Shown: positions 23,510-39,531 of the stretch, piece after piece
Numbering within the stretch: position 1 is the first letter of the stretch
Layout of the letters: every line of letters begins with the position of its first letter
From: Escherichia phage HildyBeyeler
Sequence record: MZ501074
DNA: 64,000 bases
Direction: 5' to 3' (one strand)
Program-made: the position numbers and the translations under genes
Notes under the pieces: model-generated
Told to the model about the DNA's origin: nothing
Databases searched by the model: none
What the model saw: only the letters and a program-made list of their open reading frames with translations

Positions 23510-23698
23510 ATGGAATTATTCATAGTTTCTGTTAAATTTGCACAAGATAGAGAACGTTCGGATGAGTTTAAACAAGGGTACAGACTAGTAAAGGCTACAT
23601 CTGAACTCCATGCTATGGACAAAGTAGTAGACTATATGTATAATGTAGAAGATGTTTACTACGTCAATGCTTTAGAAGCCTCAAAAGTAATTGACTAA
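23510..23698 (+). CDS. hypothetical small protein
   Basis: ORF track; AAGGA RBS. Confidence 0.4.
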   Translation: MELFIVSVKFAQDRERSDEFKQGYRLVKATSELHAMDKVVDYMYNVEDVYYVNALEASKVID

Positions 23699-23707
23699 GG
23701 AGACTAT

Positions 23708-23893
23708 ATGTCTAAGTTTCAAGAACTCAAGCAAGAGCTAGAAGAATGTGCCTGCCCTGAGTGTAGAGGAATTGGTGAAAGTTCTGATGCAGAAGCAGTG
23801 GATACTTTTTGCAATATCTGGGTTTGCCCAAATTGCAAGGGTACAGGTATTAATCCTAACTGTGGTATTTCTCTAGATATTGAAAGAGGATAA
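23708..23893 (+). CDS. small zinc-finger protein with two DnaJ-type CxxCxGxG motifs
   Basis: CPECRGIG and CPNCKGTG in 61 aa. Confidence 0.45.
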   Translation: MSKFQELKQELEECACPECRGIGESSDAEAVDTFCNIWVCPNCKGTGINPNCGISLDIERG

Positions 23894-23993
23894 TACCTGT
23901 GAAACTAAAAGATTATTATATTGGTTGGTTTGTGGGACTAGTAGTAGGATTTTCACTAGGCTATAATATGTATCAACTAATAAACTGATTACA

Positions 23994-24070
23994 TGGGGGT
24001 GTAATCGAATTGGCATAGGTACTGTACTTAAAATTCAGGTTTTGTGGGTTCGAATCCCACCACCCCTACC
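23994..24070 (+). tRNA. tRNA, anticodon read as TAA (Leu-like) but class I architecture
   Basis: Acceptor GGGGGTG/CACCCCT, T-arm GTGGG-TTCGAAT-CCCAC, CCA; loop CTTAAAA. Confidence 0.45.
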
Positions 24071-24246
24071 AAATTAAGGAAATAAGATGTATAGACATCC
24101 ACCTCCGCCAACACGTCGTTCTAGAGAAGTTATTCTCATGGAATTGACGAAAAACTTCAAGGCAACCCTTGAGGATAGAGACTTAGGTACAGATGAAGAC
24201 GTTGATTTTATCTGTAAACTATTAAAAATGAAACTGGAGAAGCAAC

Positions 24247-24453
24247 ATGGCTAATCCTGAAATTACCATGCAACGACTCATGACTAAAGGTATGATATCC
24301 GAGGCAGGCATTGAACAAGAAGTAAAAAGTTATTACGAACAGATTAAGGGTATTATAGACTCTGCTAAAAACACAGGAGAAAAAGAACACGGTGCAGCAA
24401 TTATGGCTATAACTCTTATTAGTCTAGACTTGGCAGAAGAATCTGGAGTTTAG
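24247..24453 (+). CDS. hypothetical protein
   Basis: ORF track. Confidence 0.4.
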   Translation: MANPEITMQRLMTKGMISEAGIEQEVKSYYEQIKGIIDSAKNTGEKEHGAAIMAITLISLDLAEESGV

Positions 24454-24543
24454 CTCCTCCAAACAGAATTTTTAAAAATGTACTTGCCTTTTGCTTTAAA
24501 TTTCTGGTATAATAGTTATATAAATTGATGAAGGAGTTAACGA

Positions 24544-24819
24544 ATGCAAAATCGTGTTATAGCAACTGGTATTGAAAGTGCAATCTGTAAATCCTGGGAA
24601 GGCTGGGAAGGTGAGATTGAATGGCTTTATTTCTACGATGTAGAACTTCTGCCGGAAATTAAAGCTAAATGTGTTGAAGCTGGCATGGCTCCAGATGCAA
24701 AAGCTGATATTGATATTTCAATGTCTGAACTTAAAGGTCGTGTAGTTACCGTTAGTAATGAGGGCGAAGAAGTTTTTGAACTTCCGTTCTCCTTAGCTGT
24801 CACTCCTAAGTTCGACTAA
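24544..24819 (+). CDS. hypothetical protein
   Basis: ORF track; AAGGAG RBS. Confidence 0.45.
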   Translation: MQNRVIATGIESAICKSWEGWEGEIEWLYFYDVELLPEIKAKCVEAGMAPDAKADIDISMSELKGRVVTVSNEGEEVFELPFSLAVTPKFD

Positions 24820-24828
24820 CTAATACAG

Positions 24829-24866
24829 CACTGAGCAAGTCCTTTAAAATTTGACTTGCTCAGTGC
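24829..24866 (+). terminator. perfect 14-bp hairpin overlapping next promoter
   Basis: GCACTGAGCAAGTC...GACTTGCTCAGTGC; downstream TTGCTC-17-TATAAT. Confidence 0.5.
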
Positions 24867-25018
24867 CTTAAAACTTGGTATAATAGTTATCTAATTTGGA
24901 AAGTTCTTTTTAAGGTAGTTCTTACTTTAGCAGAGTAAACTTTCGGCAGATGGTGGCAGCCACTTTACCGATATTCCATAGTCAGTGCCGCAAACACTGG
25001 CTACCTTAAAGAGAATTT

Positions 25019-25106
25019 GGGCGTTTATTCCGTAAGTGGTAGCGGAGGGGATTGTAAATCCCTGGTCATTGCGACTCGAGTGGTTCGACTCCATTAACGC
25101 CCACCA
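25019..25106 (+). tRNA. tRNA-Tyr (anticodon GTA), class II
   Basis: GGGCGTT/AACGCCC acceptor, loop TTGTAAA, long variable arm, CCA. Confidence 0.65.
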
Positions 25107-25114
25107 AATTTAAT

Positions 25115-25189
25115 GCACCTATCGTCTAATGGCTAGGACATCAGGATTTCAATCTGAGAATCGGAGTTCAATTCTCCGTGGGTGTACCA
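25115..25189 (+). tRNA. tRNA-Glu (anticodon TTC)
   Basis: Loop ATTTCAA, T-arm CGGAG-TTCAATT-CTCCG, CCA. Confidence 0.6.
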
Positions 25190-25198
25190 ATTTCTGCA

Positions 25199-25274
25199 TT
25201 CCTAGAGTGTTACTGGACAGCATGTCGGTCTCCAAAACCGTACGGTCTAGGTTCGAGTCCTAGTAGGTTTGCCA
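25199..25274 (+). tRNA. possible tRNA-Trp (CCA anticodon loop CTCCAAA); acceptor pairing unresolved
   Basis: T-arm CTAGG-TTCGAGT-CCTAG and 3-prime GCCA; 5-prime acceptor not found by hand. Confidence 0.3.
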
Positions 25275-25280
25275 AAATTT

Positions 25281-25355
25281 GCACCTTTAGCTGAGATGGA
25301 TTAGCGCTTGCCTGAAGAGCTTGAGAGGTTGGATCGTTACCAACGGGGTGCACCA
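25281..25355 (+). tRNA. tRNA, anticodon uncertain (GAA or CTG)
   Basis: GCACCTT/GGGGTGC acceptor, unusual T-loop ATCGTTA, CCA. Confidence 0.45.
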
Positions 25356-25372
25356 AATTGAAGGAGCTGCTG

Positions 25373-25645
25373 ATGCATCCTGAAAACTTCTTTATTTACT
25401 GCGCGGATAAGTCGCTGAAACGTAGAATTAACAAAGTCTATCATTATCGTGCTAGTCAACAGCCTTATGTATACGCTTTTGACGGTGATCACATTCCACT
25501 AGAACAATTATCTTGTGATTACATGATATTGAAGAACTTTGACGAGACGAAGATCTCAAGCGTTTATAATCGACAGAATCCATTAACGTGGAAATATAAG
25601 AAGAAAAAGAAAGGCATCAAATTCTTAAAAAATATAGTTGCTTAG
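25373..25645 (+). CDS. hypothetical protein
   Basis: ATG 25373 with AAGGAG RBS (track start 25358 is TTG). Confidence 0.4.
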   Translation: MHPENFFIYCADKSLKRRINKVYHYRASQQPYVYAFDGDHIPLEQLSCDYMILKNFDETKISSVYNRQNPLTWKYKKKKKGIKFLKNIVA

Positions 25646-25666
25646 TTTCCAAAAGTTCTGTATAAT
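25638..25666 (+). promoter_or_regulatory. sigma70-type promoter
   Basis: TTGCTT-17-TATAAT. Confidence 0.6.
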
Positions 25667-25714
25667 AATTACATAAATTGAACTGGAGAAGCAACATGAT
25701 AGAACAAGATAAAT

Positions 25715-25790
25715 CGACCGTTGGCTGAATGGCTTAGGCGAAGGATTGCAAATCCTTTTTATGTGAGTTCAAATCTCATGCGGTCGTCCA
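25715..25790 (+). tRNA. tRNA-Cys (anticodon GCA)
   Basis: CGACCGT/GCGGTCG acceptor, anticodon stem AAGGA/TCCTT, loop TTGCAAA, CCA. Confidence 0.7.
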
Positions 25791-25792
25791 AT

Positions 25793-25933
25793 TTGCTGAA
25801 AGAATTGTTAAATCAATTCAGGCACGCGTAGGAACACTGTCTCCGTAATTGAAAGATGAGGCACGGTTTGGAGAGGTATGCCGCTACACGCTACGGTGCT
25901 AACTCCGTCTAGGTGAAAATCCTAGTCAGCAAT
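25793..25933 (+). ncRNA. 141-nt tRNA-like structured RNA candidate
   Basis: Perfect 7-bp terminal pairing TTGCTGA/TCAGCAA, 6-bp hairpin GAATTG/CAATTC, T-arm-like CTAGG-TGAAAAT-CCTAG. Confidence 0.35.
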
Positions 25934-25942
25934 GTAAATTTA

Positions 25943-26028
25943 GGGTCGTTGGCTGAACGGTTTAAGCGCCGGACTGTTAATCCGTATCCGCAAGGATAAA
26001 GTAGGTTCAACTCCTACACGGCCCGCCA
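25943..26028 (+). tRNA. class II tRNA, anticodon loop reads GTT (identity uncertain)
   Basis: GGGTCGT/ACGGCCC acceptor, variable-arm hairpin TATCC-GCAA-GGATA, T-loop TTCAACT, CCA. Confidence 0.5.
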
Positions 26029-26130
26029 AATTCTGTGTAGAGTTAAGTAAACCGGTAGCCAACCAGCTATCATTGCTGACATCGAATTCAGCCACAGATA
26101 CCATTTTCATTAATAACTAAGGAAACAAGC

Positions 26131-26316
26131 ATGTCCAAGAATGTGATTGCGCAGCTAGAAGTTCATCGTGATAGCACTATCAACAATATTAAGTGCCGAC
26201 AAAAAGATATTGAAGCTCAAAAGGCTGATCTTTTAATGAGTATTCGAGAGCTTAATGTACGAAAAGAGTTTCTTAAAGAACTTAATGCAGCTATTGAAAA
26301 ACTCAAAGCTGAGTAA
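26131..26316 (+). CDS. hypothetical small protein
   Basis: ORF track; AAGGAAA RBS. Confidence 0.4.
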   Translation: MSKNVIAQLEVHRDSTINNIKCRQKDIEAQKADLLMSIRELNVRKEFLKELNAAIEKLKAE

Positions 26317-26325
26317 ATGAATTAT

Positions 26326-26402
26326 GCGACCGGGGCTGGCTTGGTAATGGTACTCCCCTGTCACGGGAGGGAATGTGGGTTCAAATCCCATCGGTCGCGC
26401 CA
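26326..26402 (+). tRNA. tRNA-Asp (anticodon GTC)
   Basis: GCGACCG/CGGTCGC acceptor, stem CTCCC/GGGAG, loop CTGTCAC, CCA. Confidence 0.7.
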
Positions 26403-26419
26403 GATAAGGTAGGTTAGCT

Positions 26420-26578
26420 ATGGAACGTAGGGAGTTTACTCCAGAAGAGATAGAGCAGATAAAAGAATCTGCTATGAAAAATGCTAGAATATCTCTGTCA
26501 CTGGAAGGTATCATTATTAGTGATGTAAACTTTGAAAAAATCAAAGCCATAGCTGATGAACTGGAAAAAGTAATTTAA
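26420..26578 (+). CDS. hypothetical small protein (52 aa)
   Basis: Not in ORF track; AAGGTAGG RBS; fills gap between two tRNAs. Confidence 0.35.
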   Translation: MERREFTPEEIEQIKESAMKNARISLSLEGIIISDVNFEKIKAIADELEKVI

Positions 26579-26579
26579 T

Positions 26580-26655
26580 ACATCCATAGCTCAATGGTTA
26601 GAGCTACCGCCTCTTAAGCGGAGGGTTCTAGGTTCAAGTCCTAGTGGGTGTACCA
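26580..26655 (+). tRNA. tRNA-Lys (anticodon CTT)
   Basis: D-arm GCTC-AATGGTTA-GAGC, loop CTCTTAA, T-loop TTCAAGT, CCA. Confidence 0.6.
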
Positions 26656-26685
26656 AACAAACTAAACTAGCACGAGAAATATGCT

Positions 26686-27033
26686 ATGATTAATGCTAAA
26701 GAAGAATTGTTACTTGCCCTAAAGAATACTAATTCTGAAGTTAAGTGTATTAAGATAGAATTCGGTTATTATGGGGACAAAGAAGTTTTGGTATTACCCA
26801 TAGGTTACACAGAAAAAGATATTGAAGATTTTCTAAATAATCTAGACTTTAAATATGATTCTGGTTTCGGTGGACAATTGCTTTATGGTAACGTATGGTT
26901 TACTGATGGAACTTGGTTAGAACGTGGTGAATATGATGGTTCTGAATGGTGGGAATATAAGACTACACCAGCAATTCCAGAGGAATGCCGAACAATTAAT
27001 GGTGAAGTAGATCGTACTTTACTATTAAATTAA
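26686..27033 (+). CDS. hypothetical protein
   Basis: ORF track. Confidence 0.45.
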   Translation: MINAKEELLLALKNTNSEVKCIKIEFGYYGDKEVLVLPIGYTEKDIEDFLNNLDFKYDSGFGGQLLYGNVWFTDGTWLERGEYDGSEWWEYKTTPAIPEECRTINGEVDRTLLLN

Positions 27034-27155
27034 CAAAATCTCAGTGCAGAACACGGAGCTAGCAATTCGGAAATGCTGACTCATGATAAGCTGCCTATGT
27101 ACTTGCGAAGCGGTCGTGTCCAAGACTCGGACTCTTGCACTGAAAACAATCAAAC

Positions 27156-27276
27156 ATTCTAGCGTGGTTGATGGGGAAACCAGCTTGGCTAGGGCAGAAG
27201 CTCGTTCGATTCGAGTGAAAGAATGGTTCTCGTAAGTCCGCACAAGTGATAACAGGTTCGAGTCCTGTCTAGAATG
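27156..27276 (+). ncRNA. 121-nt tRNA-like structured RNA candidate
   Basis: Perfect 7-bp terminal pairing ATTCTAG/CTAGAAT, T-arm ACAGG-TTCGAGT-CCTGT, internal TTCGATT loop. Confidence 0.35.
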
Positions 27277-27425
27277 ACACTATAAAGTTTACTTATTATG
27301 TAGGTTCCGATAGACCGGCGGGTCTATTCTGGCATTTAAGAGAGGTCTCGCAAACTTCTTTGTCAGCCGTGGGGTTGATAGCCCCCAGGTGGCCTACACA
27401 ATAAGTAAATTTATGAAAAATGTAG

Positions 27426-27454
27426 TTGCTATTTAGCTTAATTCTCTGTATAAT
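27426..27454 (+). promoter_or_regulatory. sigma70-type promoter
   Basis: TTGCTA-17-TATAAT. Confidence 0.6.
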
Positions 27455-27486
27455 ATATTCTATAAAGTGAAGAGAAGGAAAGCAAA

Positions 27487-28062
27487 ATGGAAGGATTTAA
27501 ACCAATACCCGAGTATCCAGAATACTTAGTATCTGAGAAGGGAGAAATATACTCCACTATCAGTAATAAATATTTAAAACCTACCATAAACGGGAGCGGC
27601 TATTACCACTTTGCAGTACGTGAAGATACTAATGAGTATAGATGGCTTCTGCTGCACAGAGTTATATGCAGGGTTTATGGTAATCTCCCCTCTTTAGATA
27701 GTGAAATGGAAGTAGATCATAATGATTGTAATAGGCTTAATATACTCCCTAGTAATTTAGTTGCCAGAGAGAAGAAAGATCATTACGATAAAACTACACT
27801 GGAGAGAGGAAAAACTATAGGGGGCACTAGATGTATAGTCTGTAATAAGAGGATACACTCTGGTCGAGAATACTGCATAAATTGCAGTCCAGTTAAACAG
27901 ACTAAATCCCCAGAGATTACCGCAGAACAGATAGAATATTGGGTATCAAAGTATTCCTGGACTAGAGCTGCAAAAGAGTTAAATTTATCTGATAATGGTC
28001 TACGAAAACGGTATACTAAATTAACAGGTAAATCCCCAAAAGAAATTAAAAAATCAGGGTAA
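27487..28062 (+). CDS. HNH endonuclease inside tRNA cluster
   Basis: EVDHNDCNRLN...N HNH motif plus C-terminal Cys cluster; 3-prime end overlaps tRNA-Pro. Confidence 0.6.
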   Translation: MEGFKPIPEYPEYLVSEKGEIYSTISNKYLKPTINGSGYYHFAVREDTNEYRWLLLHRVICRVYGNLPSLDSEMEVDHNDCNRLNILPSNLVAREKKDHYDKTTLERGKTIGGTRCIVCNKRIHSGREYCINCSPVKQTKSPEITAEQIEYWVSKYSWTRAAKELNLSDNGLRKRYTKLTGKSPKEIKKSG

Positions 28063-28132
28063 GGGCGATAAGGTACGCCACCTCGTTTGGGGCGAGGAAA
28101 TCTTTAGAGTTCGAATCTCTATACCCTGACCA
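28055..28132 (+). tRNA. tRNA-Pro (anticodon TGG)
   Basis: D-stem GGCG/CGCC, stem CCTCG/CGAGG, loop TTTGGGG, CCA. Confidence 0.65.
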
Positions 28133-28138
28133 AACAAT

Positions 28139-28214
28139 TGCGGGTGGGAGGCATAGAGTTCTTCTTAGTCTCATAAGCTAAGTAAGTCCAGGGCAGTACT
28201 GGAACCCGCTACCA
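28139..28214 (+). tRNA. tRNA with CAT anticodon, atypical (1-72 mismatch, non-standard T-loop)
   Basis: Loop CTCATAA; T-arm TCCAG-GGCAGTA-CTGGA; CCA encoded. Confidence 0.4.
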
Positions 28215-28232
28215 ATTTCAAGAAAAACGCAG

Positions 28233-28261
28233 TTGCTTAATGCTTAATTTCTTGTTATAAT
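28233..28261 (+). promoter_or_regulatory. sigma70-type promoter
   Basis: TTGCTT-17-TATAAT; no ORF for 330 bp downstream. Confidence 0.6.
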
Positions 28262-28264
28262 ATT

Positions 28265-28597
28265 TATATAAATTGATGCGAAAATAGCTGCCTAGATACC
28301 AGGTGTATGACGTCTACACTAGCAGAGCTACCGAAAAAGAGATCCCCAGGATAAACGTCGTAGCAAAATTAGTCTGGTATCCATCAATTTAGTTCACTAA
28401 GGTATTAGCTCGACCTAGGACTGGCTGCCAAAAAGCACGATCCCTACGATTCGGGAGAAGTTCTAGATTAGTCCACTAGATTCAGCGGCAACTGAATAGT
28501 GTATTGGGTTTGCGAGATGACGCAGTTCCTTCCGCTCGAAGCGAAGGTGCTGTAGTTACGCCGAGCTAATAGCCTTAGTAAACTAGAAGGAATATCT
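28265..28597 (+). ncRNA. candidate promoter-driven non-coding RNA region
   Basis: ORF-free (longest ORF 15 codons), several imperfect hairpins, no tRNA T-loop. Confidence 0.35.
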
Positions 28598-28861
28598 ATG
28601 TTTGATCTGAAAGATATGGCTAAAAAGTTAATGTCGCAACGCTATCAACAAAGAACACTCCATAAACGAGTTTCCGATATGAAAAAACGTTGCAATAATG
28701 CTAAATATTATAATAGTCTTAATAAACTATCTGATGCAGATCTTGTTAAAACTGAAGCAATATATAATCACTTAGCAGTAGAGTATGATATAGTGAATAA
28801 AGATATTGCTAGGCTAGAAGCTCAGATTGTAGCAACTGTACTTGACATGTACAGGGAATAA
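28598..28861 (+). CDS. hypothetical protein
   Basis: ORF track; GAAGGAA RBS. Confidence 0.45.
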   Translation: MFDLKDMAKKLMSQRYQQRTLHKRVSDMKKRCNNAKYYNSLNKLSDADLVKTEAIYNHLAVEYDIVNKDIARLEAQIVATVLDMYRE

Positions 28862-28872
28862 ATAAAGAATTT

Positions 28873-28951
28873 GGGGGATGGGTCTGCTGGGAGTGGACAC
28901 CTCGCTTGCACCGAGGACATCAGAACGATTCGAATTCGTTATCCTCCACCA
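28873..28951 (+). tRNA. tRNA-Ala (anticodon TGC)
   Basis: GGGGGAT/ATCCTCC acceptor, stem CCTCG/CGAGG, loop CTTGCAC, CCA. Confidence 0.65.
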
Positions 28952-28956
28952 AATAC

Positions 28957-29033
28957 GCGTGATTGATGGAATTGGCATACATACCGTCCTTAGAAGTCGG
29001 GTTTTGAGGGTTCGAATCCCTTGTCACGCACCA
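28957..29033 (+). tRNA. tRNA, anticodon read as TAG (Leu-like) but class I architecture
   Basis: GCGTGAT/GTCACGC acceptor, loop CTTAGAA, T-arm GAGGG-TTCGAAT-CCCTT, CCA. Confidence 0.45.
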
Positions 29034-29157
29034 AATTTGATGGTCAGAGTAAATTAAACCTACTATCTCGGTTGAGCTGTTTTAATGGGTTCGAATCCCA
29101 GCGAGGCGTAACTGCCTGGTGTGATAGAGGCATCATTCCACTAATATTGGAAAACTA

Positions 29158-29388
29158 ATGAAACGAAAATTAAAAAAATCTTATATAATTAAGATAAATA
29201 AGCTAAGAAGTAGGGCAAAAGGATGGCCACTTCGGATATTAATTGCGGATAACCATATTAGATACCATGCGGAACAACGTCATTATAAACAGTGGGAGTC
29301 ATACTGCCGCTCAAAAGCAGGTCGTTTAGATGGATCTTATGAGTTTCTATTTGGTAAGAAGCCTACTAGAGTAGCTTTAGGTAATTAA
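29158..29388 (+). CDS. hypothetical basic protein
   Basis: ORF track. Confidence 0.4.
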   Translation: MKRKLKKSYIIKINKLRSRAKGWPLRILIADNHIRYHAEQRHYKQWESYCRSKAGRLDGSYEFLFGKKPTRVALGN

Positions 29389-29393
29389 TACTT

Positions 29394-29484
29394 GGAAGAG
29401 CAAATCGAATTGGCGACGAAAACCGCTTGGAAAGTGGCTGACCGGTAAAACGGCTTGAGAGTTCAAATCTCTCCTCTTCCGCCA
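29394..29484 (+). tRNA. tRNA-Ser (anticodon GGA), class II
   Basis: Perfect GGAAGAG/CTCTTCC acceptor, loop TTGGAAA, long variable arm, CCA. Confidence 0.65.
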
Positions 29485-29496
29485 AACAATTTATAT

Positions 29497-29591
29497 GGTA
29501 GGTCAATCCAACGGCTGGCGCTGGACTCCGACTTGAAATCGGTTGATCGTAGTGATACGGTGTAAGGGTTCGATCCCCTTACCTACCTCCA
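29497..29591 (+). tRNA. tRNA-Ser (anticodon TGA), class II
   Basis: Perfect GGTAGGT/ACCTACC acceptor, loop CTTGAAA, long variable arm, CCA. Confidence 0.65.
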
Positions 29592-29957
29592 AATCTTGAA
29601 GTATGCCGGAATCGGTAGACGGGGCTGCCTAAAAGGTTTATAGGGAACATCCACTCCCTGCAACATACCTCATAAAGCGGCTGAGATAAATGGTCTATCT
29701 CGTGAAGGTTCAAGTCCTTCTGCTTCTTGATACATCTATGGCTCAAAGTGTAACGGTGCTATTTGATGCTCTTGGTAAGACTTCCCCGACATGCGTTCGG
29801 GAGTAAGCTGCTAAGACTAGAGTAGAAGAGTTTCTGAGAGCCGCCACAATTGAAAATTCGTACTCGTCTTGAGCTGCGTGCAATAGGAGATAACTTGATT
29901 AGTATTCTAGAACATGCTAATTGAGGATGGTTTCGCTAACCCTGCGAGTTTTCAATT

Positions 29958-30034
29958 GTGGCTATATCATAATTGGTTAATGATCCTGATTGTGAATCAG
30001 GCCTATGTGGATTCGAATTCCACTAGCCACCCCA
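29958..30034 (+). tRNA. tRNA-His (anticodon GTG)
   Basis: Perfect GTGGCTA/TAGCCAC acceptor, stem CCTGA/TCAGG, loop TTGTGAA, CCA. Confidence 0.7.
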
Positions 30035-30059
30035 AATTAACTTAAATAGGAAATAAAAT

Positions 30060-30257
30060 ATGGCTGATTTCTGCAAACAATGCTCCATTGATATGTGGGG
30101 CAGAGATACTGGTGATCTTTCTGGTTTGATTACAGAAGCCGAAGTCAAAGAAGGTTATGGTGCAGTTGTGGTTTGCGAAGGATGCGGAGTTATTCGAGTA
30201 GATCATGAAGGCAAACGTTTAGAAGAACCGGAAAATTTAGGAGAAACAAATGAGTAA
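30060..30257 (+). CDS. hypothetical small zinc-ribbon protein
   Basis: CxxC...CxxC spacing; GGAAA RBS. Confidence 0.4.
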   Translation: MADFCKQCSIDMWGRDTGDLSGLITEAEVKEGYGAVVVCEGCGVIRVDHEGKRLEEPENLGETNE

Positions 30258-30486
30258 TGCTTTAATTAGTGAAATTATGTTAACACGTCTTGCAGAACTG
30301 CAAACTCTTCGAGATGAATCTCAGAATAACTTATCCTACCATAAACAGATGGTAGATACTCTTACTACTCGTATTGAAACTTACGAGCGTGATATTGCAG
30401 CATTACAAGCTCTTTTCTCCGTATCAGCACCAGATACGTTAGAACAGCCTGCTGTATCTCAGCCAGTAGAGACAGCATCTAGTTAA
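30250..30486 (+). CDS. hypothetical protein
   Basis: ORF track; translationally coupled to upstream ORF. Confidence 0.4.
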   Translation: MSNALISEIMLTRLAELQTLRDESQNNLSYHKQMVDTLTTRIETYERDIAALQALFSVSAPDTLEQPAVSQPVETASS

Positions 30487-30495
30487 TAGCATTTT

Positions 30496-30571
30496 TGGAG
30501 TGTAGATCAATTGGCAGATCGTCGGCCTCTGACTCCGAAGGTTCCTGGTTCGATCCCAGGCACTCCAGCCA
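30496..30571 (+). tRNA. tRNA-Gln (anticodon CTG)
   Basis: TGGAGTG/CACTCCA acceptor, D-stem GATC/GATC, loop CTCTGAC, CCA. Confidence 0.6.
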
Positions 30572-30577
30572 AATAAT

Positions 30578-30653
30578 TGGAGAGTAGTGTAACGGTTAGC
30601 ACAACGGCCTTTGACTCCGTTAATGGTAGGTTCGATTCCTCCTTCTCCAGCCA
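30578..30653 (+). tRNA. tRNA-Gln (anticodon TTG)
   Basis: TGGAGAG/TTCTCCA acceptor, loop CTTTGAC, T-loop TTCGATT, CCA. Confidence 0.6.
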
Positions 30654-30660
30654 AAATAAT

Positions 30661-30735
30661 GCGTGATTAGTTCAGTGGCTAGAACAACTGGCTTCCAACC
30701 AGTAGACACGAGTTCGACTCTCGTATCCCGCACCA
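30661..30735 (+). tRNA. tRNA-Gly (anticodon TCC)
   Basis: D-arm GTTC-AGTGGCTA-GAAC, stem ACTGG/CCAGT, loop CTTCCAA, CCA. Confidence 0.7.
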
Positions 30736-30749
30736 AATAAGGAATCTCT

Positions 30750-31001
30750 ATGCACGTTTTTGAGTTTCGTAATAAAAGTACCAATAAACGAGTTATTGTT
30801 ATTGGGGAAACATATCGAGCATATGAACAAACTGACGGCTCTGTTATCTTGAATGATGAGAAAGGGGGTTTTAGCTTTTATCCAGAAGAACCTTATGAAG
30901 AGTTTCGAAAACAATTTAACCTAGACTGGAGAAAGCATTTAAACACTGTTGCTTCATCTGTAGTACTGCCAACTACCAGTACTGTACTATCTAATGGCTG
31001 A
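30750..31001 (+). CDS. hypothetical protein
   Basis: ORF track; AAGGAA RBS. Confidence 0.4.
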   Translation: MHVFEFRNKSTNKRVIVIGETYRAYEQTDGSVILNDEKGGFSFYPEEPYEEFRKQFNLDWRKHLNTVASSVVLPTTSTVLSNG

Positions 31002-31158
31002 TAACCTAAAAGTCAAGATCGACAAACAAAAGAAACGTGTAGAAGTAGAGATTGGTGAAGAACGTGTAGCCTTCACCTTTGAATTTCTACAACAAATGGC
31101 AATGACAGTTATGACTGATAAGTCTCCTGTTATTGAAAAAGAAATCCCGTTGAAATAA
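30994..31158 (+). CDS. hypothetical small protein (54 aa)
   Basis: Not in ORF track; ATG overlaps upstream stop (ATGGCTGA); followed by hairpin. Confidence 0.3.
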   Translation: MADNLKVKIDKQKKRVEVEIGEERVAFTFEFLQQMAMTVMTDKSPVIEKEIPLK

Positions 31159-31166
31159 CGGGTTCT

Positions 31167-31253
31167 GCTGGGTTGGCAGAATGGTTGAATGCACCTGATT
31201 TGTAATCAGGAGGAGTAATCCCGTTGCAGGTTCGAATCCTGTGCCCAGCACCA
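31167..31253 (+). tRNA. tRNA with 15-nt variable region, anticodon loop reads TGT (identity uncertain)
   Basis: GCTGGGT/GCCCAGC acceptor, perfect stem CCTGA/TCAGG, loop TTTGTAA, CCA. Confidence 0.5.
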
Positions 31254-31267
31254 ATTTAAGGACTATT

Positions 31268-31435
31268 ATGTTTAAACTGTTAGTAGTTATCTGGTATAGT
31301 CAATCAAATAGAGCGAATACCTCCCACGTTATAGACTTTACTACTAAAAATGAAGCTGAAAAAGCATATGCTAATTTAATAGAACGCAATAAAGAATCTC
31401 GTAGTATAGTTTATGAAGTGACTAAACTTTATTAA
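31268..31435 (+). CDS. hypothetical small protein
   Basis: ATG 31268 after tRNA; AAGGAC RBS. Confidence 0.35.
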   Translation: MFKLLVVIWYSQSNRANTSHVIDFTTKNEAEKAYANLIERNKESRSIVYEVTKLY

Positions 31436-31443
31436 AAATTCAT

Positions 31444-31472
31444 TTGCTTTCCCTCTTATTTATTGTTATAAT
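31444..31472 (+). promoter_or_regulatory. sigma70-type promoter
   Basis: TTGCTT-17-TATAAT. Confidence 0.6.
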
Positions 31473-31502
31473 ATTTATATAAATTAATGAGAGGGAAACC
31501 AA

Positions 31503-31793
31503 ATGAAACGTTATCTTTCTGTTATGTTCCAAACCGGCGGCCAAAGATACACCTATGAATTTCCACCTTCCTGGAAAATCAGGGAAGGTGATCAAATAGT
31601 TGTGTTGACACCGCGTGAAGAATATAAAGTAGTGACGGTTAAACAAGTATTTCCAAAAGATCATGAACCAGCTATAGGCATCCGATATAAGATGATTCAT
31701 GGCGTGGTTCGTCAAGTACCACGAACTGAGGTAGAAGTAGATAATACTGGAGAAACTAAATTCCATTATACTTCTTACTTAGACAGTGTGTGA
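31503..31793 (+). CDS. hypothetical protein
   Basis: ORF track; GAGAGGGAAA RBS. Confidence 0.45.
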   Translation: MKRYLSVMFQTGGQRYTYEFPPSWKIREGDQIVVLTPREEYKVVTVKQVFPKDHEPAIGIRYKMIHGVVRQVPRTEVEVDNTGETKFHYTSYLDSV

Positions 31794-31807
31794 TGTAAAT
31801 ATTTTAA

Positions 31808-31884
31808 TGCTTCGGTAGCTTAGCGATCTAAAGCACTCGGCTGATAACCGAGAGATCAGGGGTTTAAATCCCTCCCGGAGTACC
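31808..31884 (+). tRNA. tRNA-Ile (anticodon GAT)
   Basis: D-stem GCTT/AAGC, perfect stem CTCGG/CCGAG, loop CTGATAA, CCA. Confidence 0.65.
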
Positions 31885-31981
31885 AAATCTAGGAATTAAG
31901 ACTATGCGTCCAGGAAAGTTTAAAAAAGCTAGTTGGTCTAAAGAGTACAAAGAATACTTACTTAGCCTAGTAAAACGTAAT

Positions 31982-32057
31982 AGTTAGTTGGCAGAGTGGT
32001 TATGCGCCTCCTTCATACGGAGCGACTACAGTGGTTCAAATCCACTACTAACTACCA
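31982..32057 (+). tRNA. tRNA with CAT anticodon (Met or Ile2)
   Basis: Perfect AGTTAGT/ACTAACT acceptor, loop TTCATAC, T-arm AGTGG-TTCAAAT-CCACT, CCA. Confidence 0.6.
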
Positions 32058-35506: not shown

Positions 35507-36187
35507 ATGAGGATTATTTCTAAGTTCGCCGATGTGTATGATCTGCAGAACAGTTTGTTTGACCCAGATCGTGTGTGGGAACGTAAAACTGAAGAGCTAA
35601 CAATAAAAGCCCCAGATGATGACAACTATACGATCATGCAAGAACGTAGGATTGCTCGTATTGAGGGAAAGATTGGTTACTTTAAAATTTTGCCTTTCTT
35701 CCTAGCTGGGGAGATTTACTGGTTATACCACATTGATGTACTGGATACCCAAGTAAAAACCTTCAGTTTGGACGAGGCGTTAGAAATTTTGGAGGAGAAG
35801 GGATGGTCAACAGGGTTTTCTTTGCTAGACATAAATAGGGGGAAGCCAAAAGAGTCTATCTTAGCATGGCAAGAAGAAGTTACCCCCAAAGCTAAAGAAG
35901 CCTTAACTGAGTTAAGAGTACCCTTAGCAATTCTAGACTCAGTAGTTCCAAATGATAAAGATAACAATAAATACTTCAAGGTTATAACTAATCCACGCCT
36001 ACACCTATCAGGAATACCGTGGCAGAGTGTGGAACCTAACTTATATCGACTGCACCAAAGAATCGAGCAGTATATTTGGGGTGTACTAGGAACTGGTGAG
36101 CCTGATATGATTACTGTGTCAGATAAAGACCGCCTAGCAGCACATGGATTTGATACGGTTACGTCATTCAGGAATATGAAAAGATGA
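35507..36187 (+). CDS. hypothetical protein
   Basis: ORF track; AAGAGGA RBS. Confidence 0.5.
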   Translation: MRIISKFADVYDLQNSLFDPDRVWERKTEELTIKAPDDDNYTIMQERRIARIEGKIGYFKILPFFLAGEIYWLYHIDVLDTQVKTFSLDEALEILEEKGWSTGFSLLDINRGKPKESILAWQEEVTPKAKEALTELRVPLAILDSVVPNDKDNNKYFKVITNPRLHLSGIPWQSVEPNLYRLHQRIEQYIWGVLGTGEPDMITVSDKDRLAAHGFDTVTSFRNMKR

Positions 36188-36627
36188 TAAAAAACTTTAT
36201 TAGTTCTCTATGGCAAGGTAAATGGTATATCCTGGGAGCAGGTCTAGCGATAGGCATCGGATTCGGTGCTTATCACTTAGTAGATAAAGTGGAGACTTTA
36301 GCAGGAGATCTTGCGGTAGCTACTAAAAAGATTTCTTCCCTAGAAACTTCCCTCAATAAGGTGAAAGCTGAAAGCGAACTTCGTGAGACTAGAATGAATC
36401 AGTATTTCACAATGAATAATATTTCGCAAGCAGATCTAGACAAAAAGATTAAGCAGTTAGATAAAGCTCTTAGTCGCCAAGATATTATAGCTGCAAAGCC
36501 TGGATTGGTAACATTAATTGCTAAAAAGCAGAGTAAAGAATTTGAGGAGAGATTAGCATGTCTTTCTGGAAGTGTGGAATACTGCTCGCAGCCGCAATCA
36601 CAATCACAGGCTGTGCACAAGAAATAA
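36184..36627 (+). CDS. i-spanin-like protein (N-terminal TM plus coiled coil)
   Basis: ILGAGLAIGIGFGAY TM helix then coiled coil; overlaps downstream lipoprotein gene. Confidence 0.4.
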   Translation: MIKNFISSLWQGKWYILGAGLAIGIGFGAYHLVDKVETLAGDLAVATKKISSLETSLNKVKAESELRETRMNQYFTMNNISQADLDKKIKQLDKALSRQDIIAAKPGLVTLIAKKQSKEFEERLACLSGSVEYCSQPQSQSQAVHKK

Positions 36628-36911
36628 AGCCAGAGCCCTCTCATGAGCTACCAACAGCTCACGTAGATTGGCCTAAAGGACTTCAACCTTGTAGCTTTGA
36701 CTTTAAGTTTGAAAAGAAAGTAGCTACAAATGGAGAAGAGGGCGTAGTAGTTGTTGTACCATATAAAGATTGGAATATGTTGGCAAAATGCCGTGAGGCA
36801 GAATATTCCTTTATTTCACGACTGACTAGTATGGTTTGCTTCTATCGCCAAGATTTACAAGAAAAACGTTGCTTAATTTACTATCCACCCATTAACAGTA
36901 GGAAAGATTAA
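36558..36911 (+). CDS. o-spanin-like lipoprotein
   Basis: Signal peptide with lipobox ITGC; start embedded in 3-prime end of 36184-36627. Confidence 0.4.
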   Translation: MSFWKCGILLAAAITITGCAQEIKPEPSHELPTAHVDWPKGLQPCSFDFKFEKKVATNGEEGVVVVVPYKDWNMLAKCREAEYSFISRLTSMVCFYRQDLQEKRCLIYYPPINSRKD

Positions 36912-37663
36912 TGTCAGTATTAGTAGGTTTACATGGCGAGGCAGGTGCAGGAAAAGATACCGTTGCAAAATTAATTATCGATTGGTGTAATGACACGTAT
37001 CCAACGTGTTTACCACGTCGTTACAGTTTTGCTAAACCAGTTTATGAGCTTGCATCCGTAATCCTCGGGGTAACTCCAGAGTTTCTAGGAGAGCGCAGGG
37101 GAAAAGAAATTGACCAATGGTTTACGGTCACACAATCTCAATTGGAGCGAGCTAGAGACGTATGGTTTAAATATGGTATCGATAAGTTTGAAGACTTCTC
37201 GTACGTTTGGCCGATTTTTGAGGAAAAATATCTTAATCCTCAACAACTTATCTCAGAGAATAAAGAAGACGGACTTTATAGTTTATTTATTTCTCCGAGA
37301 AAAATGTTACAGCTCGTAGGAACAGAGCTAGGAAGGCAGCTGGTACATGAACGCATTTGGCTCATAATTCTGGAGCAATCCATCGCTAAAGACGACCCAG
37401 ATGTCGCCGTAATAACAGATGTGAGATTCCCCAATGAAGGAGAGTTACTCAGAGAAACGAACCATTTAGATATGGATTCTTTACTAATAAATGTAGTGCC
37501 CGCTGAGCAGAAGTTCACTATTAAATCAGATCATCCATCTGAAAGTGGTATTCCTACAAAATATATCACTCACGAATTAGTTAATAAATTCGATGGTATC
37601 AATAACCTTAAACTAGAAGTGTATAACTTCTGTGACTTAGAGCTAGAACCACTAGTTGGATAA
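36911..37663 (+). CDS. deoxynucleoside monophosphate kinase-like P-loop kinase
   Basis: GLHGEAGAGKDT P-loop at N-terminus; 250 aa. Confidence 0.5.
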   Translation: MSVLVGLHGEAGAGKDTVAKLIIDWCNDTYPTCLPRRYSFAKPVYELASVILGVTPEFLGERRGKEIDQWFTVTQSQLERARDVWFKYGIDKFEDFSYVWPIFEEKYLNPQQLISENKEDGLYSLFISPRKMLQLVGTELGRQLVHERIWLIILEQSIAKDDPDVAVITDVRFPNEGELLRETNHLDMDSLLINVVPAEQKFTIKSDHPSESGIPTKYITHELVNKFDGINNLKLEVYNFCDLELEPLVG

Positions 37664-37675
37664 TCAAGGATTGCT

Positions 37676-38269
37676 ATGGCTAATAAAAAAGAAGAAAAGA
37701 CTAACCTGTTTCACTCCATTCGCCAATCTAACGAGTATACCTTTTTCTTTGATGAAGAACTTGGTCCGCCTGATGAATACCGTGATTTATCAATGGTACT
37801 TATGCAGGCAAATGAGGACGACGAAATTAATCTGATGATTAATGGCCCTGGTGGCTATGTTGATACCGCTGCACAGTTATCTAACTTAATTGCCAATTGC
37901 CGTGGAACAGTTATAGGACATCTGATTGGTCCTAGTGCTTCTGCTTATTGCACAATTTTCCTATCCTGTCATAGATGGGTAGTACATCCACATGCTACGC
38001 TAATGGGACACACGTTCTCTGGCGGATTCTGTGAGAAAGGTCAAGAAATCAAGAAAGCCTATGAATCTTACAACAAGTTTGTAGAAGATATGATGCTAGA
38101 TGTCTACTATCCGTTCTTCTCAATAGATGAAATCGACGAGATGGTAAAAGACAACAAAAATATCTATCTAGATAGCAAGGAAATTCATAAGCGTATTGAA
38201 ATCTTGGCAAAATATCGATCTGAGCAATATAATAAAGCCCAGTTACCTCAATCCTGGGGGCACAACTAA
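37676..38269 (+). CDS. ClpP-family serine peptidase-like protein
   Basis: INGPGGYV, GPSASAY (Ser) and HPHATLMGH (His) in ClpP order. Confidence 0.45.
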   Translation: MANKKEEKTNLFHSIRQSNEYTFFFDEELGPPDEYRDLSMVLMQANEDDEINLMINGPGGYVDTAAQLSNLIANCRGTVIGHLIGPSASAYCTIFLSCHRWVVHPHATLMGHTFSGGFCEKGQEIKKAYESYNKFVEDMMLDVYYPFFSIDEIDEMVKDNKNIYLDSKEIHKRIEILAKYRSEQYNKAQLPQSWGHN

Positions 38270-38285: not shown

Positions 38286-38316
38286 GCCAGGGTTTAACGA
38301 CCCTGGCCTTTCTTTT
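38286..38316 (+). terminator. rho-independent terminator
   Basis: GCCAGGGT...ACCCTGGC stem followed by CTTTCTTTT. Confidence 0.65.
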
Positions 38317-38378: not shown

Positions 38379-38407
38379 TTGAAATTTTCCTCCAAAATTA
38401 GTATAAT
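38379..38407 (+). promoter_or_regulatory. sigma70-type promoter
   Basis: TTGAAA-17-TATAAT; also TTGACA at 38329. Confidence 0.55.
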
Positions 38408-38432
38408 GGTACTGGTTAGAGGAGGTTACAAA

Positions 38433-39089
38433 TTGGAAAAGTTCTTACAATTATTAACAGTACTGCTCCAAGAAGCGAAAGACCCAGCATCGCTTCTTAA
38501 ACGTCTGCTAACTATCTTAGTTGCTGTCATTATTTTCTTATTTGTTAGTAATACTAGTGAGGTGATGTCATTCTTAAAGACTTTCTCCACGTCTGCGGTT
38601 CTACAGGATGTTCAAACTCAAAGGATAAGTAATTTTCCTAACGTAGCTAGAGAAAAGAGCATGGTGCTTTTTTCCCAAACGGGTGCGGATGCTGTTTTTG
38701 TAGTCAAGTATAAACCCGATGCCATTAATGATTATTCTAACATTATTGCATGGGAAAGCAATGCGCAATTAGATAGGGCTGACTTGGCTGATAAAGCGGT
38801 AAATAAGACGTCTGAGCTATATAGACGTCACTTAGACGGCTTTAACTACGCATCGGATTTAAGTGTAAAAGTAAATAAATACATGGGGTTAAATATACCT
38901 GCGTTTAAGAACGTTACTTTTAATTACATATACACTTGTCCGTATTTCAATCTAAACAATATCTATGCTGGATATATTGGTATTGCTTGGAAAGATAATC
39001 CTGTAGATACAGCTGATTCTGAACAGTTCAAGGAATATTTAGCAAAGCTCTGTTCCCCACAACAGAGATCTTTAGGTAGGTCAATATGA
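38433..39089 (+). CDS. holin-like membrane protein
   Basis: TTG 38433 after GAGGAGG (218 codons); TM segment; immediately upstream of endolysin with ATGA overlap. Confidence 0.5.
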   Translation: MEKFLQLLTVLLQEAKDPASLLKRLLTILVAVIIFLFVSNTSEVMSFLKTFSTSAVLQDVQTQRISNFPNVAREKSMVLFSQTGADAVFVVKYKPDAINDYSNIIAWESNAQLDRADLADKAVNKTSELYRRHLDGFNYASDLSVKVNKYMGLNIPAFKNVTFNYIYTCPYFNLNNIYAGYIGIAWKDNPVDTADSEQFKEYLAKLCSPQQRSLGRSI

Positions 39090-39499
39090 GTTTTAAATTT
39101 AGTAAAAGAAGTTTAGATAGATTAAAGGGTGTTCATCCAGATTTAGTAAAAGTAACTCATAGAGCTTTAGAATTAAGCCCATATGATTTTACTATTACAG
39201 AAGGATTACGTTCCTTAGAACAAAGCGCCCAAAATATTAAGAATGGAACCTCGTTTTTAAAAGACCCGAGCAAGTCAAAACACGTACAAGGGCTGGCTGT
39301 TGACTTTGCTCCTCTTAAAAATGGGGAGATTGATTGGAATGATTTAGAATCATTCAAATTAGTGGCAGATGCCTTCTTTAAGGCAGCAGAAGAGCTAGGA
39401 GTAAAGATTAGATGGGGTGGTGATTGGAACCAGAACGGAAGTTATAAGGATGAAATCCAACGTGGTACTTTTGATGGCCCACATATAGAATTGATTTAA
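39086..39499 (+). CDS. lys: endolysin, L-alanyl-D-glutamate peptidase (M15-type)
   Basis: 137 aa; SKSKHVQGLAVDFAP...GGDWN...DGPHIEL zinc-peptidase motifs. Confidence 0.85.
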   Translation: MSFKFSKRSLDRLKGVHPDLVKVTHRALELSPYDFTITEGLRSLEQSAQNIKNGTSFLKDPSKSKHVQGLAVDFAPLKNGEIDWNDLESFKLVADAFFKAAEELGVKIRWGGDWNQNGSYKDEIQRGTFDGPHIELI

Positions 39500-39508: not shown

Positions 39509-39531
39509 GGCGGGAATACTCCCGCCTTTTT
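39509..39531 (+). terminator. rho-independent terminator
   Basis: GGCGGGA-ATAC-TCCCGCC followed by TTTTT. Confidence 0.7.

What the first reader, a model, noticed from the sequence alone, without database searches (positions are those of the whole stretch)
36184..36911. Overlapping TM/coiled-coil and lipoprotein genes 1.5 kb upstream of holin-endolysin
Gene 36184-36627 (N-terminal TM, coiled coil) has its 3-prime end overlapped out of frame by gene 36558-36911, which starts with a lipoprotein signal (ITGC). This is the signature layout of overlapped i-spanin/o-spanin pairs, but it is separated from the holin/endolysin cassette at 38433-39499.
Basis: inference. Interest (0 to 1): 0.4.

Follow-up and report, generated by a model that had tools for sequence, protein, structure and literature searches.

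The report
T5-type overlapped spanin gene pair
These two overlapping genes are the already catalogued inner- and outer-membrane spanin pair of a T5-like phage, which breaks the host's outer membrane at the end of infection; the finding is correct but ordinary.

Summary
ORF 36184-36627 (147 aa) has one N-terminal transmembrane segment and a helical remainder. ORF 36558-36911 (117 aa) starts with a signal peptide ending in the lipobox ITGC. The two overlap by 70 nt, out of frame. The window is a T5-like phage (Demerecviridae, 96.5% identical to Salmonella phage Tennessee).

The pair corresponds to T5p044/T5p043 of phage T5. Kongari et al. 2018 (PMC6139136) list it as the "T5 family" of overlapped two-component spanins: 147 and 117 aa, 70-bp overlap. 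Both proteins match the PHROG "Rz-like spanin" families 739 and 812, which the experimentally tested T4 spanins PseT.3/PseT.2 also match. The two cysteines essential in T4 PseT.2 are conserved here.

Codon-position variability in 28 distinct relatives switches frame at the overlap, so both genes are under protein-coding selection. The order spanins, dNMP kinase, Clp-like protease, holin, endolysin is conserved in three Demerecviridae lineages.

The 1.5-kb separation from holin/endolysin is real. A terminator-like hairpin and a promoter-like site lie in that gap. This separation is normal for T5-like phages, and T4 spanin genes are also unlinked from its holin and endolysin.

Verdict: already known, low interest. 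No direct functional test of T5-family spanins was found.

The parts
36184..36627 (+). i-spanin gene (147 aa). It has a short cytoplasmic N-terminus, a TMD at about residues 15-33, a helical periplasmic domain, the conserved motif AAKPGLV, and a C-terminal Cys126/Cys134 pair.
   Evidence: ORF and hydropathy. PHROG 739 'Rz-like spanin' at 3.6e-37. 88.4% identical to T5p044. The AF2 single-sequence model has a helix at 25-77, with 10-residue block means of 86-92 over residues 41-70. BLASTP to T4 PseT.3 gives 27% identity, E 3e-6.
36558..36911 (+). o-spanin gene (117 aa). It has an SPII signal peptide with lipobox ITGC (lipidated Cys19, Ala at +2, which predicts outer-membrane sorting). The mature part is 99 aa with four periplasmic Cys (45, 78, 94, 105).
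   Evidence: ORF and lipobox. PHROG 812 'Rz-like spanin' at 4.3e-28. 92% identical to T5p043. BLASTP to T4 PseT.2 gives 26% identity, E 2e-6, with Cys94/Cys105 aligned to the last two cysteines of PseT.2.
36558..36627 (+). 70-nt dual-coding overlap. It encodes the i-spanin C-terminus (residues 126-147) and, in the frame offset by 2 nt, the whole o-spanin signal peptide, the lipobox and the first 4 mature residues.
   Evidence: Sequence. The same 70-nt overlap occurs in T5 and 24 other loci, 88 nt in KpGranit and 34 nt in DU_PP_V. Variability at i-frame third positions drops from 0.361 to 0.228 in the overlap.
36544..36549 (+). Shine-Dalgarno-like GAGGAG, 8 nt before the o-spanin ATG, inside the i-spanin coding sequence.
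   Evidence: Sequence. Shivani annotates a ribosome-binding site just upstream of its i-spanin start and another just upstream of its o-spanin start; because of the endonuclease-gene insertion, its o-spanin site is not at the homologous position.
36170..36173 (+). Shine-Dalgarno-like AGGA before the i-spanin ATG. The i-spanin start overlaps the stop of the upstream gene (ATGA at 36184-36187), which suggests translational coupling.
   Evidence: Sequence.
36911..37663 (+). Intervening gene 1: dNMP kinase. Its start overlaps the o-spanin stop (TAATG). It is not a lysis gene.
   Evidence: Pfam DNMK 1.2e-10. PHROG 139. Annotated as dnk in T5.
37676..38269 (+). Intervening gene 2: Clp-protease-like protein.
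   Evidence: Pfam CLP_protease 2e-8. PHROG 1827 at 2.3e-88.
38286..38307 (+). Terminator-like hairpin (9 bp stem, 6 GC pairs, followed by a T-rich stretch, CTTTCTTTTA) right after the Clp-like gene. It probably ends the transcription unit that holds the spanin genes.
   Evidence: Consensus scan. This is a pattern match only.
38379..38407 (+). Promoter-like site (TTGAAA, 17 nt, TATAAT; 11 of 12) ahead of the holin. AGGAGG lies at 38420-38425 and the TTG start at 38433.
   Evidence: The T5 record annotates a 'putative promoter' at the equivalent place.
38433..39089 (+). Holin, T4 gpt-type (class III): the functional partner that starts lysis.
   Evidence: Pfam Phage_holin_T 4.3e-113. PHROG 860.
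39086..39499 (+). Endolysin, M15 peptidase, 137 aa: the functional partner that degrades peptidoglycan.
   Evidence: Pfam Peptidase_M15_4 2.2e-9. PHROG 465 at 1.2e-57.

Best explanation
The two genes encode the two-component spanin of a T5-like phage.

What the sequence shows: gene 1 makes a type II inner-membrane protein (i-spanin) with a helical periplasmic domain. [quoted passage not shown] Its signal peptide and lipobox are encoded within the 3' end of gene 1, in another frame.

What is inferred from work on lambda Rz/Rz1 and T4 PseT.3/PseT.2:
- The two proteins bind through their C-terminal periplasmic regions and form complexes that span the periplasm through the peptidoglycan mesh.
- Disulfide bonds hold these complexes as homodimers.
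- The complexes stay inactive until the gpt-type holin (38433-39089) permeabilises the inner membrane and the M15 endolysin (39086-39499) destroys the peptidoglycan.
- The freed complexes then disrupt the outer membrane, probably by fusing it with the inner membrane. This is the last step of lysis.

The pair appears to be transcribed with nucleotide-metabolism genes, in a unit separate from the holin-endolysin operon. This is compatible with the model, because spanins are harmless until the wall is degraded.
For: - Anatomy: N-terminal TMD, lipobox ITGC with Ala at +2, 70-nt out-of-frame overlap and internal SD.
- Family matches: PHROG 739 and 812 'Rz-like spanin', at 3.6e-37 and 4.3e-28. T4 PseT.3 and PseT.2 hit the same two PHROGs at 1.3e-37 and 5e-42. 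They also align directly with the window proteins at 26-27% identity, E about 1e-6.
- Experimental support for the T4 relatives: Kongari et al. 2018 report that T4 pseT.3/pseT.2 complement a lambda RzamRz1am lysis defect and that PseT.2 Cys87 and Cys98 are both essential. The last two cysteines of PseT.2 align with Cys94 and Cys105 of the window o-spanin in the motif C-x-Y-R-x-x-L-x-E-x-x-C.
- Prior cataloguing: the same paper lists T5, SPC35, Stitch and others as the T5 i- and o-spanin families: overlapped, 147 and 117 aa, 70-bp overlap. The window proteins are 88% and 92% identical to the T5 pair.
- Selection on both frames: codon-position variability switches frame at the overlap.
- Conservation: the pair, its lipobox, the four periplasmic Cys of the o-spanin and the two Cys of the i-spanin are conserved in Sugarlandvirus (KpGranit) and Hongcheonvirus (DU_PP_V) at 34-43% identity. 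So is the gene order spanins, dnk, Clp-like, holin, endolysin.
- Structure: helical periplasmic domain in the AF2 model.
Against: - I found no direct experiment on a T5-family spanin (deletion, complementation or localisation) in the searchable literature. Function therefore rests on homology to T4 and on anatomy.
- The link to T4 is remote (26-27% identity).
- Pfam and NCBIfam give no significant match for either protein.
- The AF2 model of the o-spanin has low confidence (pLDDT 50.5).
- The pair is not in the holin-endolysin transcription unit.
Confidence: 0.93

Rival explanations
1. The lipoprotein is a superinfection-exclusion or receptor-masking lipoprotein, like T5 Llp which blocks FhuA, and the upstream TM protein is unrelated to it.
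For: T5-like phages do encode a small protective lipoprotein (own knowledge). A lipobox alone does not distinguish the two roles.
Against: The protein matches PHROG 812 together with T4 PseT.2, and shares the C-terminal C-x-Y-R-x-x-L-x-E-x-x-C motif, whose cysteines correspond to the two that are essential in T4 PseT.2. It is always paired and overlapped with a PseT.3-like TM protein. As far as I know, llp in T5 lies next to the receptor-binding protein gene, not here; this was not checked with the tools.
Confidence: 0.02
2. The pair regulates lysis timing (an antiholin or lysis-inhibition function like T4 RI/RIII acting on the gpt-type holin) rather than disrupting the outer membrane.
For: The holin is a gpt homologue. 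T4 RI is also a small protein with an N-terminal membrane segment and a periplasmic domain (own knowledge).
Against: The sequence matches are to spanin families, not to RI. An outer-membrane lipoprotein partner with conserved disulfide cysteines has no place in the known antiholin scheme.
Confidence: 0.02
3. The genes are real but dispensable or vestigial for lysis in this phage, and the outer membrane breaks by another route or by shear.
For: No direct experiment on T5-family spanins was found. According to the lambda literature (own knowledge), spanin defects are masked in shaken cultures without added divalent cations.
Against: There is strong purifying selection on both frames. The pair and its cysteines are conserved across about 540 Demerecviridae records and three deep lineages. 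The reading frames and signals are kept even where a homing-endonuclease gene split the pair.
Confidence: 0.03

Closest known systems
Phage T5 spanin pair T5p044/T5p043 (the 'T5 family' of i- and o-spanins in Kongari et al. 2018, PMC6139136)
   Same: The lengths (147 and 117 aa), the 70-nt overlap and frame offset, the lipobox ITGC and all six periplasmic cysteines are the same. So is the gene order: spanins, dnk, Clp-like, holin, endolysin. Identity is 88% (i-spanin) and 92% (o-spanin).
   Different: The differences are allelic. The cytoplasmic N-terminal tail is MIKNFISSLWQGKW here and MRKWFVDLVWNNKM in T5, where an HNH endonuclease gene sits directly upstream. There are also a few substitutions in the signal peptide.
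Salmonella phage Shivani / Yersinia phage phiR201 variant of the T5 family (separated architecture)
   Same: The proteins are the same.
   Different: In those phages a roughly 700-bp gene sits between the two genes. [quoted passage not shown] The insertion removes the overlap and replaces the i-spanin C-terminal tail and the first residues of the o-spanin signal peptide. The window has the uninterrupted, overlapped form.
Phage T4 PseT.3/PseT.2 spanins (experimentally tested)
   Same: Both pairs fall in PHROGs 739 and 812. Shared motifs are KPGLV in the i-spanin, and H-x-x-W-P and C-x-Y-R-x-x-L-x-E-x-x-C in the o-spanin. In both phages the spanin genes are not adjacent to the holin and endolysin genes.
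   Different: Identity is only 26-27%. The T4 genes are 'separated', with only a 4-nt start/stop overlap between the two genes. PseT.3 has no cysteine and ends about 20 residues earlier. PseT.2 has two periplasmic cysteines against four here.
Lambda Rz/Rz1
   Same: The functional scheme is the same: a type II inner-membrane protein with a helical periplasmic domain, an outer-membrane lipoprotein encoded in another frame of the same DNA, and periplasmic cysteines (and the paper's background).
   Different: No sequence similarity was detected; there were no Pfam matches to any family for the o-spanin. Rz1 is fully embedded within Rz, is much smaller and is proline-rich. In lambda the pair directly follows the endolysin gene in the lysis cassette.

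Membership tests
Two-component spanin (Summer et al. 2007; Kongari et al. 2018) | The i-spanin has a single N-terminal TMD, with the rest of the protein periplasmic (type II). | tested here: met
   The only hydrophobic stretch is at residues 15-33 (KD19 1.55). The remainder is charged (21 K+R, 15 D+E).
Two-component spanin (Summer et al. 2007; Kongari et al. 2018) | The periplasmic domain of the i-spanin is largely alpha-helical or coiled-coil. | tested here: met
   The AF2 single-sequence model has a helix at 25-77, with 10-residue block pLDDT means of 86-92 over residues 41-70, and further helices up to residue 127. The supplement of Kongari et al. lists one coiled coil at 31-73 for the T5 i-spanin.
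Two-component spanin (Summer et al. 2007; Kongari et al. 2018) | The o-spanin has an SPII signal with a lipobox Cys and no inner-membrane retention residue (Asp) at +2. | tested here: met
   The sequence is MSFWKCGILLAAAITITG|CAQ, with lipobox ITGC at 16-19 and Ala at +2. The lipobox is conserved as ITGC, ASGC or LVGC in relatives.
Two-component spanin (Summer et al. 2007; Kongari et al. 2018) | The two genes are adjacent in embedded, overlapped or separated architecture, with the i-spanin first. | tested here: met
   The architecture is overlapped: 70 nt, second frame offset by 2 nt.
Two-component spanin (Summer et al. 2007; Kongari et al. 2018) | Periplasmic cysteines are available for intermolecular disulfides. 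| tested here: met
   The i-spanin has Cys126 and Cys134. The o-spanin has Cys45, Cys78, Cys94 and Cys105. All are conserved in KpGranit and DU_PP_V.
Two-component spanin (Summer et al. 2007; Kongari et al. 2018) | The i-spanin and o-spanin interact physically through their C-termini. | not testable with these tools
   No multimer prediction or experiment was available.
Two-component spanin (Summer et al. 2007; Kongari et al. 2018) | The pair is required for outer-membrane disruption (spherical-cell phenotype when absent). | not testable with these tools
   This needs genetics. No report on T5-family spanins was found.
T5 spanin family (Kongari et al. 2018) | Close sequence similarity to T5p044 and T5p043, with the same lengths and the same 70-bp overlap. 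| tested here: met
   88.4% and 92% identity, 147 and 117 aa, 70 nt.
T5 spanin family (Kongari et al. 2018) | Conserved genomic position upstream of dnk, the Clp-like gene, the holin and the endolysin. | tested here: met
   The order is the same in T5, Shivani, Tennessee, KpGranit and DU_PP_V.
T4 PseT.3/PseT.2-type spanins (PHROG 739 / PHROG 812) | Significant match to the family profiles that T4 PseT.3 and PseT.2 also match. | tested here: met
   Window: 3.6e-37 and 4.3e-28. T4: 1.3e-37 and 5e-42.
T4 PseT.3/PseT.2-type spanins (PHROG 739 / PHROG 812) | The C-terminal cysteine pair of the o-spanin, which is essential in T4. | tested here: met
   The last two cysteines of PseT.2 align with Cys94 and Cys105. 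Kongari et al. report PseT.2 Cys87 and Cys98 as essential.
T4 PseT.3/PseT.2-type spanins (PHROG 739 / PHROG 812) | Separated gene architecture and a cysteine-free i-spanin (as in the T4 family proper). | tested here: not met
   Here there is a 70-nt overlap and a roughly 20-residue C-terminal extension of the i-spanin that carries two Cys. The pair is therefore a related but distinct family, as in Kongari's tables.
Lambda Rz/Rz1 family | Sequence membership and embedded architecture. | tested here: not met
   No Pfam match to any spanin or lysis family. The architecture is overlapped, not embedded.

The most novel reading that the evidence does not exclude
The evidence allows, but does not prove, a common origin of part of the lysis toolkit in T5-like and T4-like phages. 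They would share a gpt-type holin and PseT.3/PseT.2-type spanins, encoded away from the other lysis genes and transcribed with nucleotide-metabolism genes. On this reading, the T5 lineage created the gene overlap by extending the i-spanin C-terminus by about 20 residues carrying two extra cysteines, and added a second cysteine pair to the o-spanin. That would imply a more heavily disulfide-locked complex than in T4. Kongari et al. list the T4 and T5 families separately, while PHROGs already merges them, so this would be a modest evolutionary footnote rather than a new system.
Probability: 0.6. Interest if true: 0.2.

Novelty: already known. Interest (0 to 1): 0.08.

Why it matters
It matters little beyond correct annotation. 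The closest relative in GenBank (phage Tennessee) and many other T5-like records still label these two genes 'Phage protein' or 'hypothetical protein', or annotate only one of them. The o-spanin gene is often missed because it starts inside another gene. Recognising the pair completes the lysis gene set (holin, endolysin, spanin) of this phage, which is useful for phage-therapy and biocontrol dossiers. It opens no new question.

Tried and rejected
- Pfam and NCBIfam scans of both proteins gave nothing above the cut-offs. The hits were weak and coiled-coil-like (FtsL domain 20.7 bits against a cut-off of 50; MctB; CNOT1). I rejected them as low-complexity or helix noise.
- A sequence search of the PDB found no solved relative for either protein; the best E-values were 0.06 and 0.02 against unrelated proteins.
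- The single-sequence AF2 model of the o-spanin has low confidence (pLDDT 50.5). Its beta-beta-alpha-beta-beta pattern resembles the beta-alpha-beta organisation described for T4 PseT.2, but I do not rely on it and did not run a fold search with it.
- I considered Llp-like exclusion lipoprotein and RI-like antiholin readings and rejected them on the family matches.
- I did not spend the large protein-database searches (search for homologous proteins, the search of protein representatives), because the identity of the pair was already settled by the phage collections and the literature.
- Literature searches for a direct experiment on T5 spanins found none.

Full report
**What is in the sequence.** The + strand carries an ATG ORF at 36184-36627 (147 aa) and an ATG ORF at 36558-36911 (117 aa).
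- The first protein has one hydrophobic stretch, residues 15-33 (YILGAGLAIGIGFGAYHLV, Kyte-Doolittle 19-residue mean 1.55). The rest is charged, and two cysteines lie near the C-terminus (126, 134).
- The second protein begins MSFWKCGILLAAAITITGCAQ. This is a signal peptide ending in the lipobox ITGC, with Ala after the lipidated Cys19. Four more cysteines lie in the mature part (45, 78, 94, 105).
- The overlap is 70 nt (36558-36627), and the second frame is offset by 2 nt.
- The o-spanin ATG sits inside the Ala125-Cys126 codons of the first gene (gcATGt). GAGGAG lies 8 nt upstream of it.
- The first gene's ATG overlaps the stop of the upstream gene (ATGA). The second gene's stop overlaps the start of the next gene (TAATG).

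**Where the window comes from.** The region is 96.5% identical to Salmonella phage Tennessee and 92-95% identical to many Salmonella, Escherichia and Shigella T5-like phages (Demerecviridae, Tequintavirus). 448 phage records match it. The window also carries a cluster of 21 tRNA genes, as T5-like phages do.

**Are both ORFs real genes?** I aligned the region from 28 distinct related sequences without gaps.
- Before the overlap, variability is concentrated at codon position 3 of the first frame (mean entropy 0.361, against 0.092 and 0.031 at positions 1 and 2).
- After the overlap, it is concentrated at position 3 of the second frame (0.418, against 0.121 and 0.085).
- Inside the overlap, variability at i-frame third positions falls to 0.228.

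This is the signature of two protein-coding genes under purifying selection, with a frame switch at the overlap. In five relatives the o-spanin start is GTG instead of ATG, a change that is synonymous in the i-spanin frame.

**What the proteins are.**
- Against PHROGs, the 147-aa protein matches phrog_739 (3.6e-37) and the 117-aa protein matches phrog_812 (4.3e-28). Both families are labelled 'Rz-like spanin'.
- In phage T5 itself the same pair is T5p044/T5p043: 147 and 117 aa, with a 70-nt overlap. Identity to the window proteins is 88% and 92%.
- Kongari et al. 2018 (PMC6139136) list a 'T5 family' among both the i-spanin and the o-spanin families (T5, EPS7, Stitch, SPC35, AKFV33, FFH1, DT57C, My1, phiR201, Shivani). 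They state that the T5 spanins overlap by 70 bp. Their supplementary tables give 147 and 117 aa and a coiled coil at residues 31-73 of the T5 i-spanin.
- Many GenBank and RefSeq records annotate the pair as i-spanin/o-spanin or Rz-like spanin. Many others, including the closest relative, call them hypothetical.

**Link to an experimentally tested system.**
- T4 PseT.3 and PseT.2 hit the same two PHROGs (1.3e-37 and 5e-42).
- They align directly with the window proteins at 26-27% identity (E 3e-6 and 2e-6).
- Shared motifs are KPGLV in the i-spanin, and H-x-x-W-P, P-[YF]-x-D and C-x-Y-R-x-x-L-x-E-x-x-C in the o-spanin.
- Kongari et al. report that pseT.3/pseT.2 complement a lambda RzamRz1am lysis defect. 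They also report that Cys87 and Cys98 of PseT.2 are both essential. The last two cysteines of PseT.2 align with Cys94 and Cys105 of the window o-spanin.
- Compared with T4, the T5-type i-spanin is about 20 residues longer at the C-terminus. This extension carries two cysteines and is what produces the overlap. The o-spanin has an additional cysteine pair.

**Conservation in deeper relatives.** tblastn finds the pair in about 540 phage records.
- These include Klebsiella Sugarlandvirus (34-43% identity) and Pectobacterium Hongcheonvirus.
- In KpGranit and DU_PP_V the TMD, the lipobox (ASGC, LVGC), all six periplasmic cysteines and an out-of-frame overlap (88 and 34 nt) are kept.
- The gene order is also kept: unknown 206-245-aa gene, i-spanin, o-spanin, dNMP kinase, Clp-like protease, holin, endolysin.

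**The separation from holin and endolysin.**
- The holin (Pfam Phage_holin_T, 4.3e-113) starts at TTG 38433, preceded by AGGAGG. The M15 endolysin follows at 39086-39499.
- Between the o-spanin and the holin lie the dNMP kinase (36911-37663) and a Clp-protease-like gene (37676-38269).
- A terminator-like hairpin lies at 38286-38307 and a near-consensus promoter-like site at 38379-38407. The T5 record annotates a putative promoter at the equivalent place.
- The spanin genes are therefore probably in a different transcription unit from holin-endolysin. This is an inference from consensus matches only.
- It is the normal arrangement for the whole family. T4 likewise encodes its spanins away from t and e.

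**Mechanism.**
- Shown by sequence: membrane topology signals, the lipoprotein signal, conserved cysteines and a helical periplasmic domain (AF2 helix 25-77, 10-residue block pLDDT means 86-92 over residues 41-70).
- Inferred from lambda and T4 work: the two proteins form a periplasm-spanning complex, held as disulfide-linked dimers and restrained by the peptidoglycan mesh. After holin and endolysin action it disrupts the outer membrane, probably by membrane fusion.
- Not shown: I found no direct experiment on T5-family spanins.

**Rivals.** I considered an Llp-like exclusion lipoprotein, an RI-like antiholin function and a vestigial pair. The family matches, the obligatory pairing and the selection on both frames make each unlikely.

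**Verdict.** The pair is an ordinary member of the published T5 spanin family, so it is already known and of low interest. Its practical value is limited to annotation, since many T5-like records still miss or mislabel the o-spanin.

Noticed in passing
window 36184-36225; L004 3004-3501; loci L007-L034: The first 14 or so codons of the i-spanin (the cytoplasmic tail) come in three allele types. Each type tracks what lies upstream. MIKNF... occurs when the 226-aa gene abuts the i-spanin, as in the window. M[RW]K[WG]FVDLVW... occurs in all 9 loci where a 165-aa HNH endonuclease gene abuts it, as in T5. MDLIQKLL... (149 aa) occurs when no ATG-initiated ORF ends within 12 nt. Homing-endonuclease insertions seem to have rewritten the 5' end of the gene.
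   Followed up: partly
L001 2590-3288 (Shivani); also L014, L016, L020: In some T5-like phages a roughly 700-bp gene sits exactly in the overlap. Kongari et al. [quoted passage not shown] The insertion turns the pair into a 'separated' architecture. It replaces the i-spanin tail (…YCRDERKNK) and the first residues of the o-spanin signal peptide (MHKIKLG…), while the lipobox is kept. This was already described by Kongari et al. 2018.
   Followed up: yes
window 35507-36187: A 226-aa gene (PHROG 4243, unknown function) appears translationally coupled to the i-spanin start (ATGA). It is conserved in the same position in Sugarlandvirus and Hongcheonvirus. Some records call it 'DNA polymerase III subunit epsilon', but Pfam gives no support for that here (only a weak wHTH hit, E 0.021).
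   Followed up: partly
window 38379-38435: The mechanical ORF list starts the holin at TTG 38379, which is actually the -35 hexamer of a promoter-like site. The likely start is TTG 38433, preceded by AGGAGG. This gives a 218-aa holin, as in T5 and Shivani. Phage Tennessee's record annotates a longer, 227-aa version.
   Followed up: partly
window 20861-32057: There is a cluster of 21 tRNA genes on the + strand, typical of T5-like phages. The first is called tRNA-Ser with the unusual anticodon ACT by ARAGORN. It may be a miscalled or atypical tRNA.
   Followed up: no
window 39509-39526: A GC-rich hairpin that scores as terminator-like on both strands (GGCGGGAATACTCCCGCC, with T-rich flanks) lies right after the endolysin stop. 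It would close the holin-endolysin unit.
   Followed up: no
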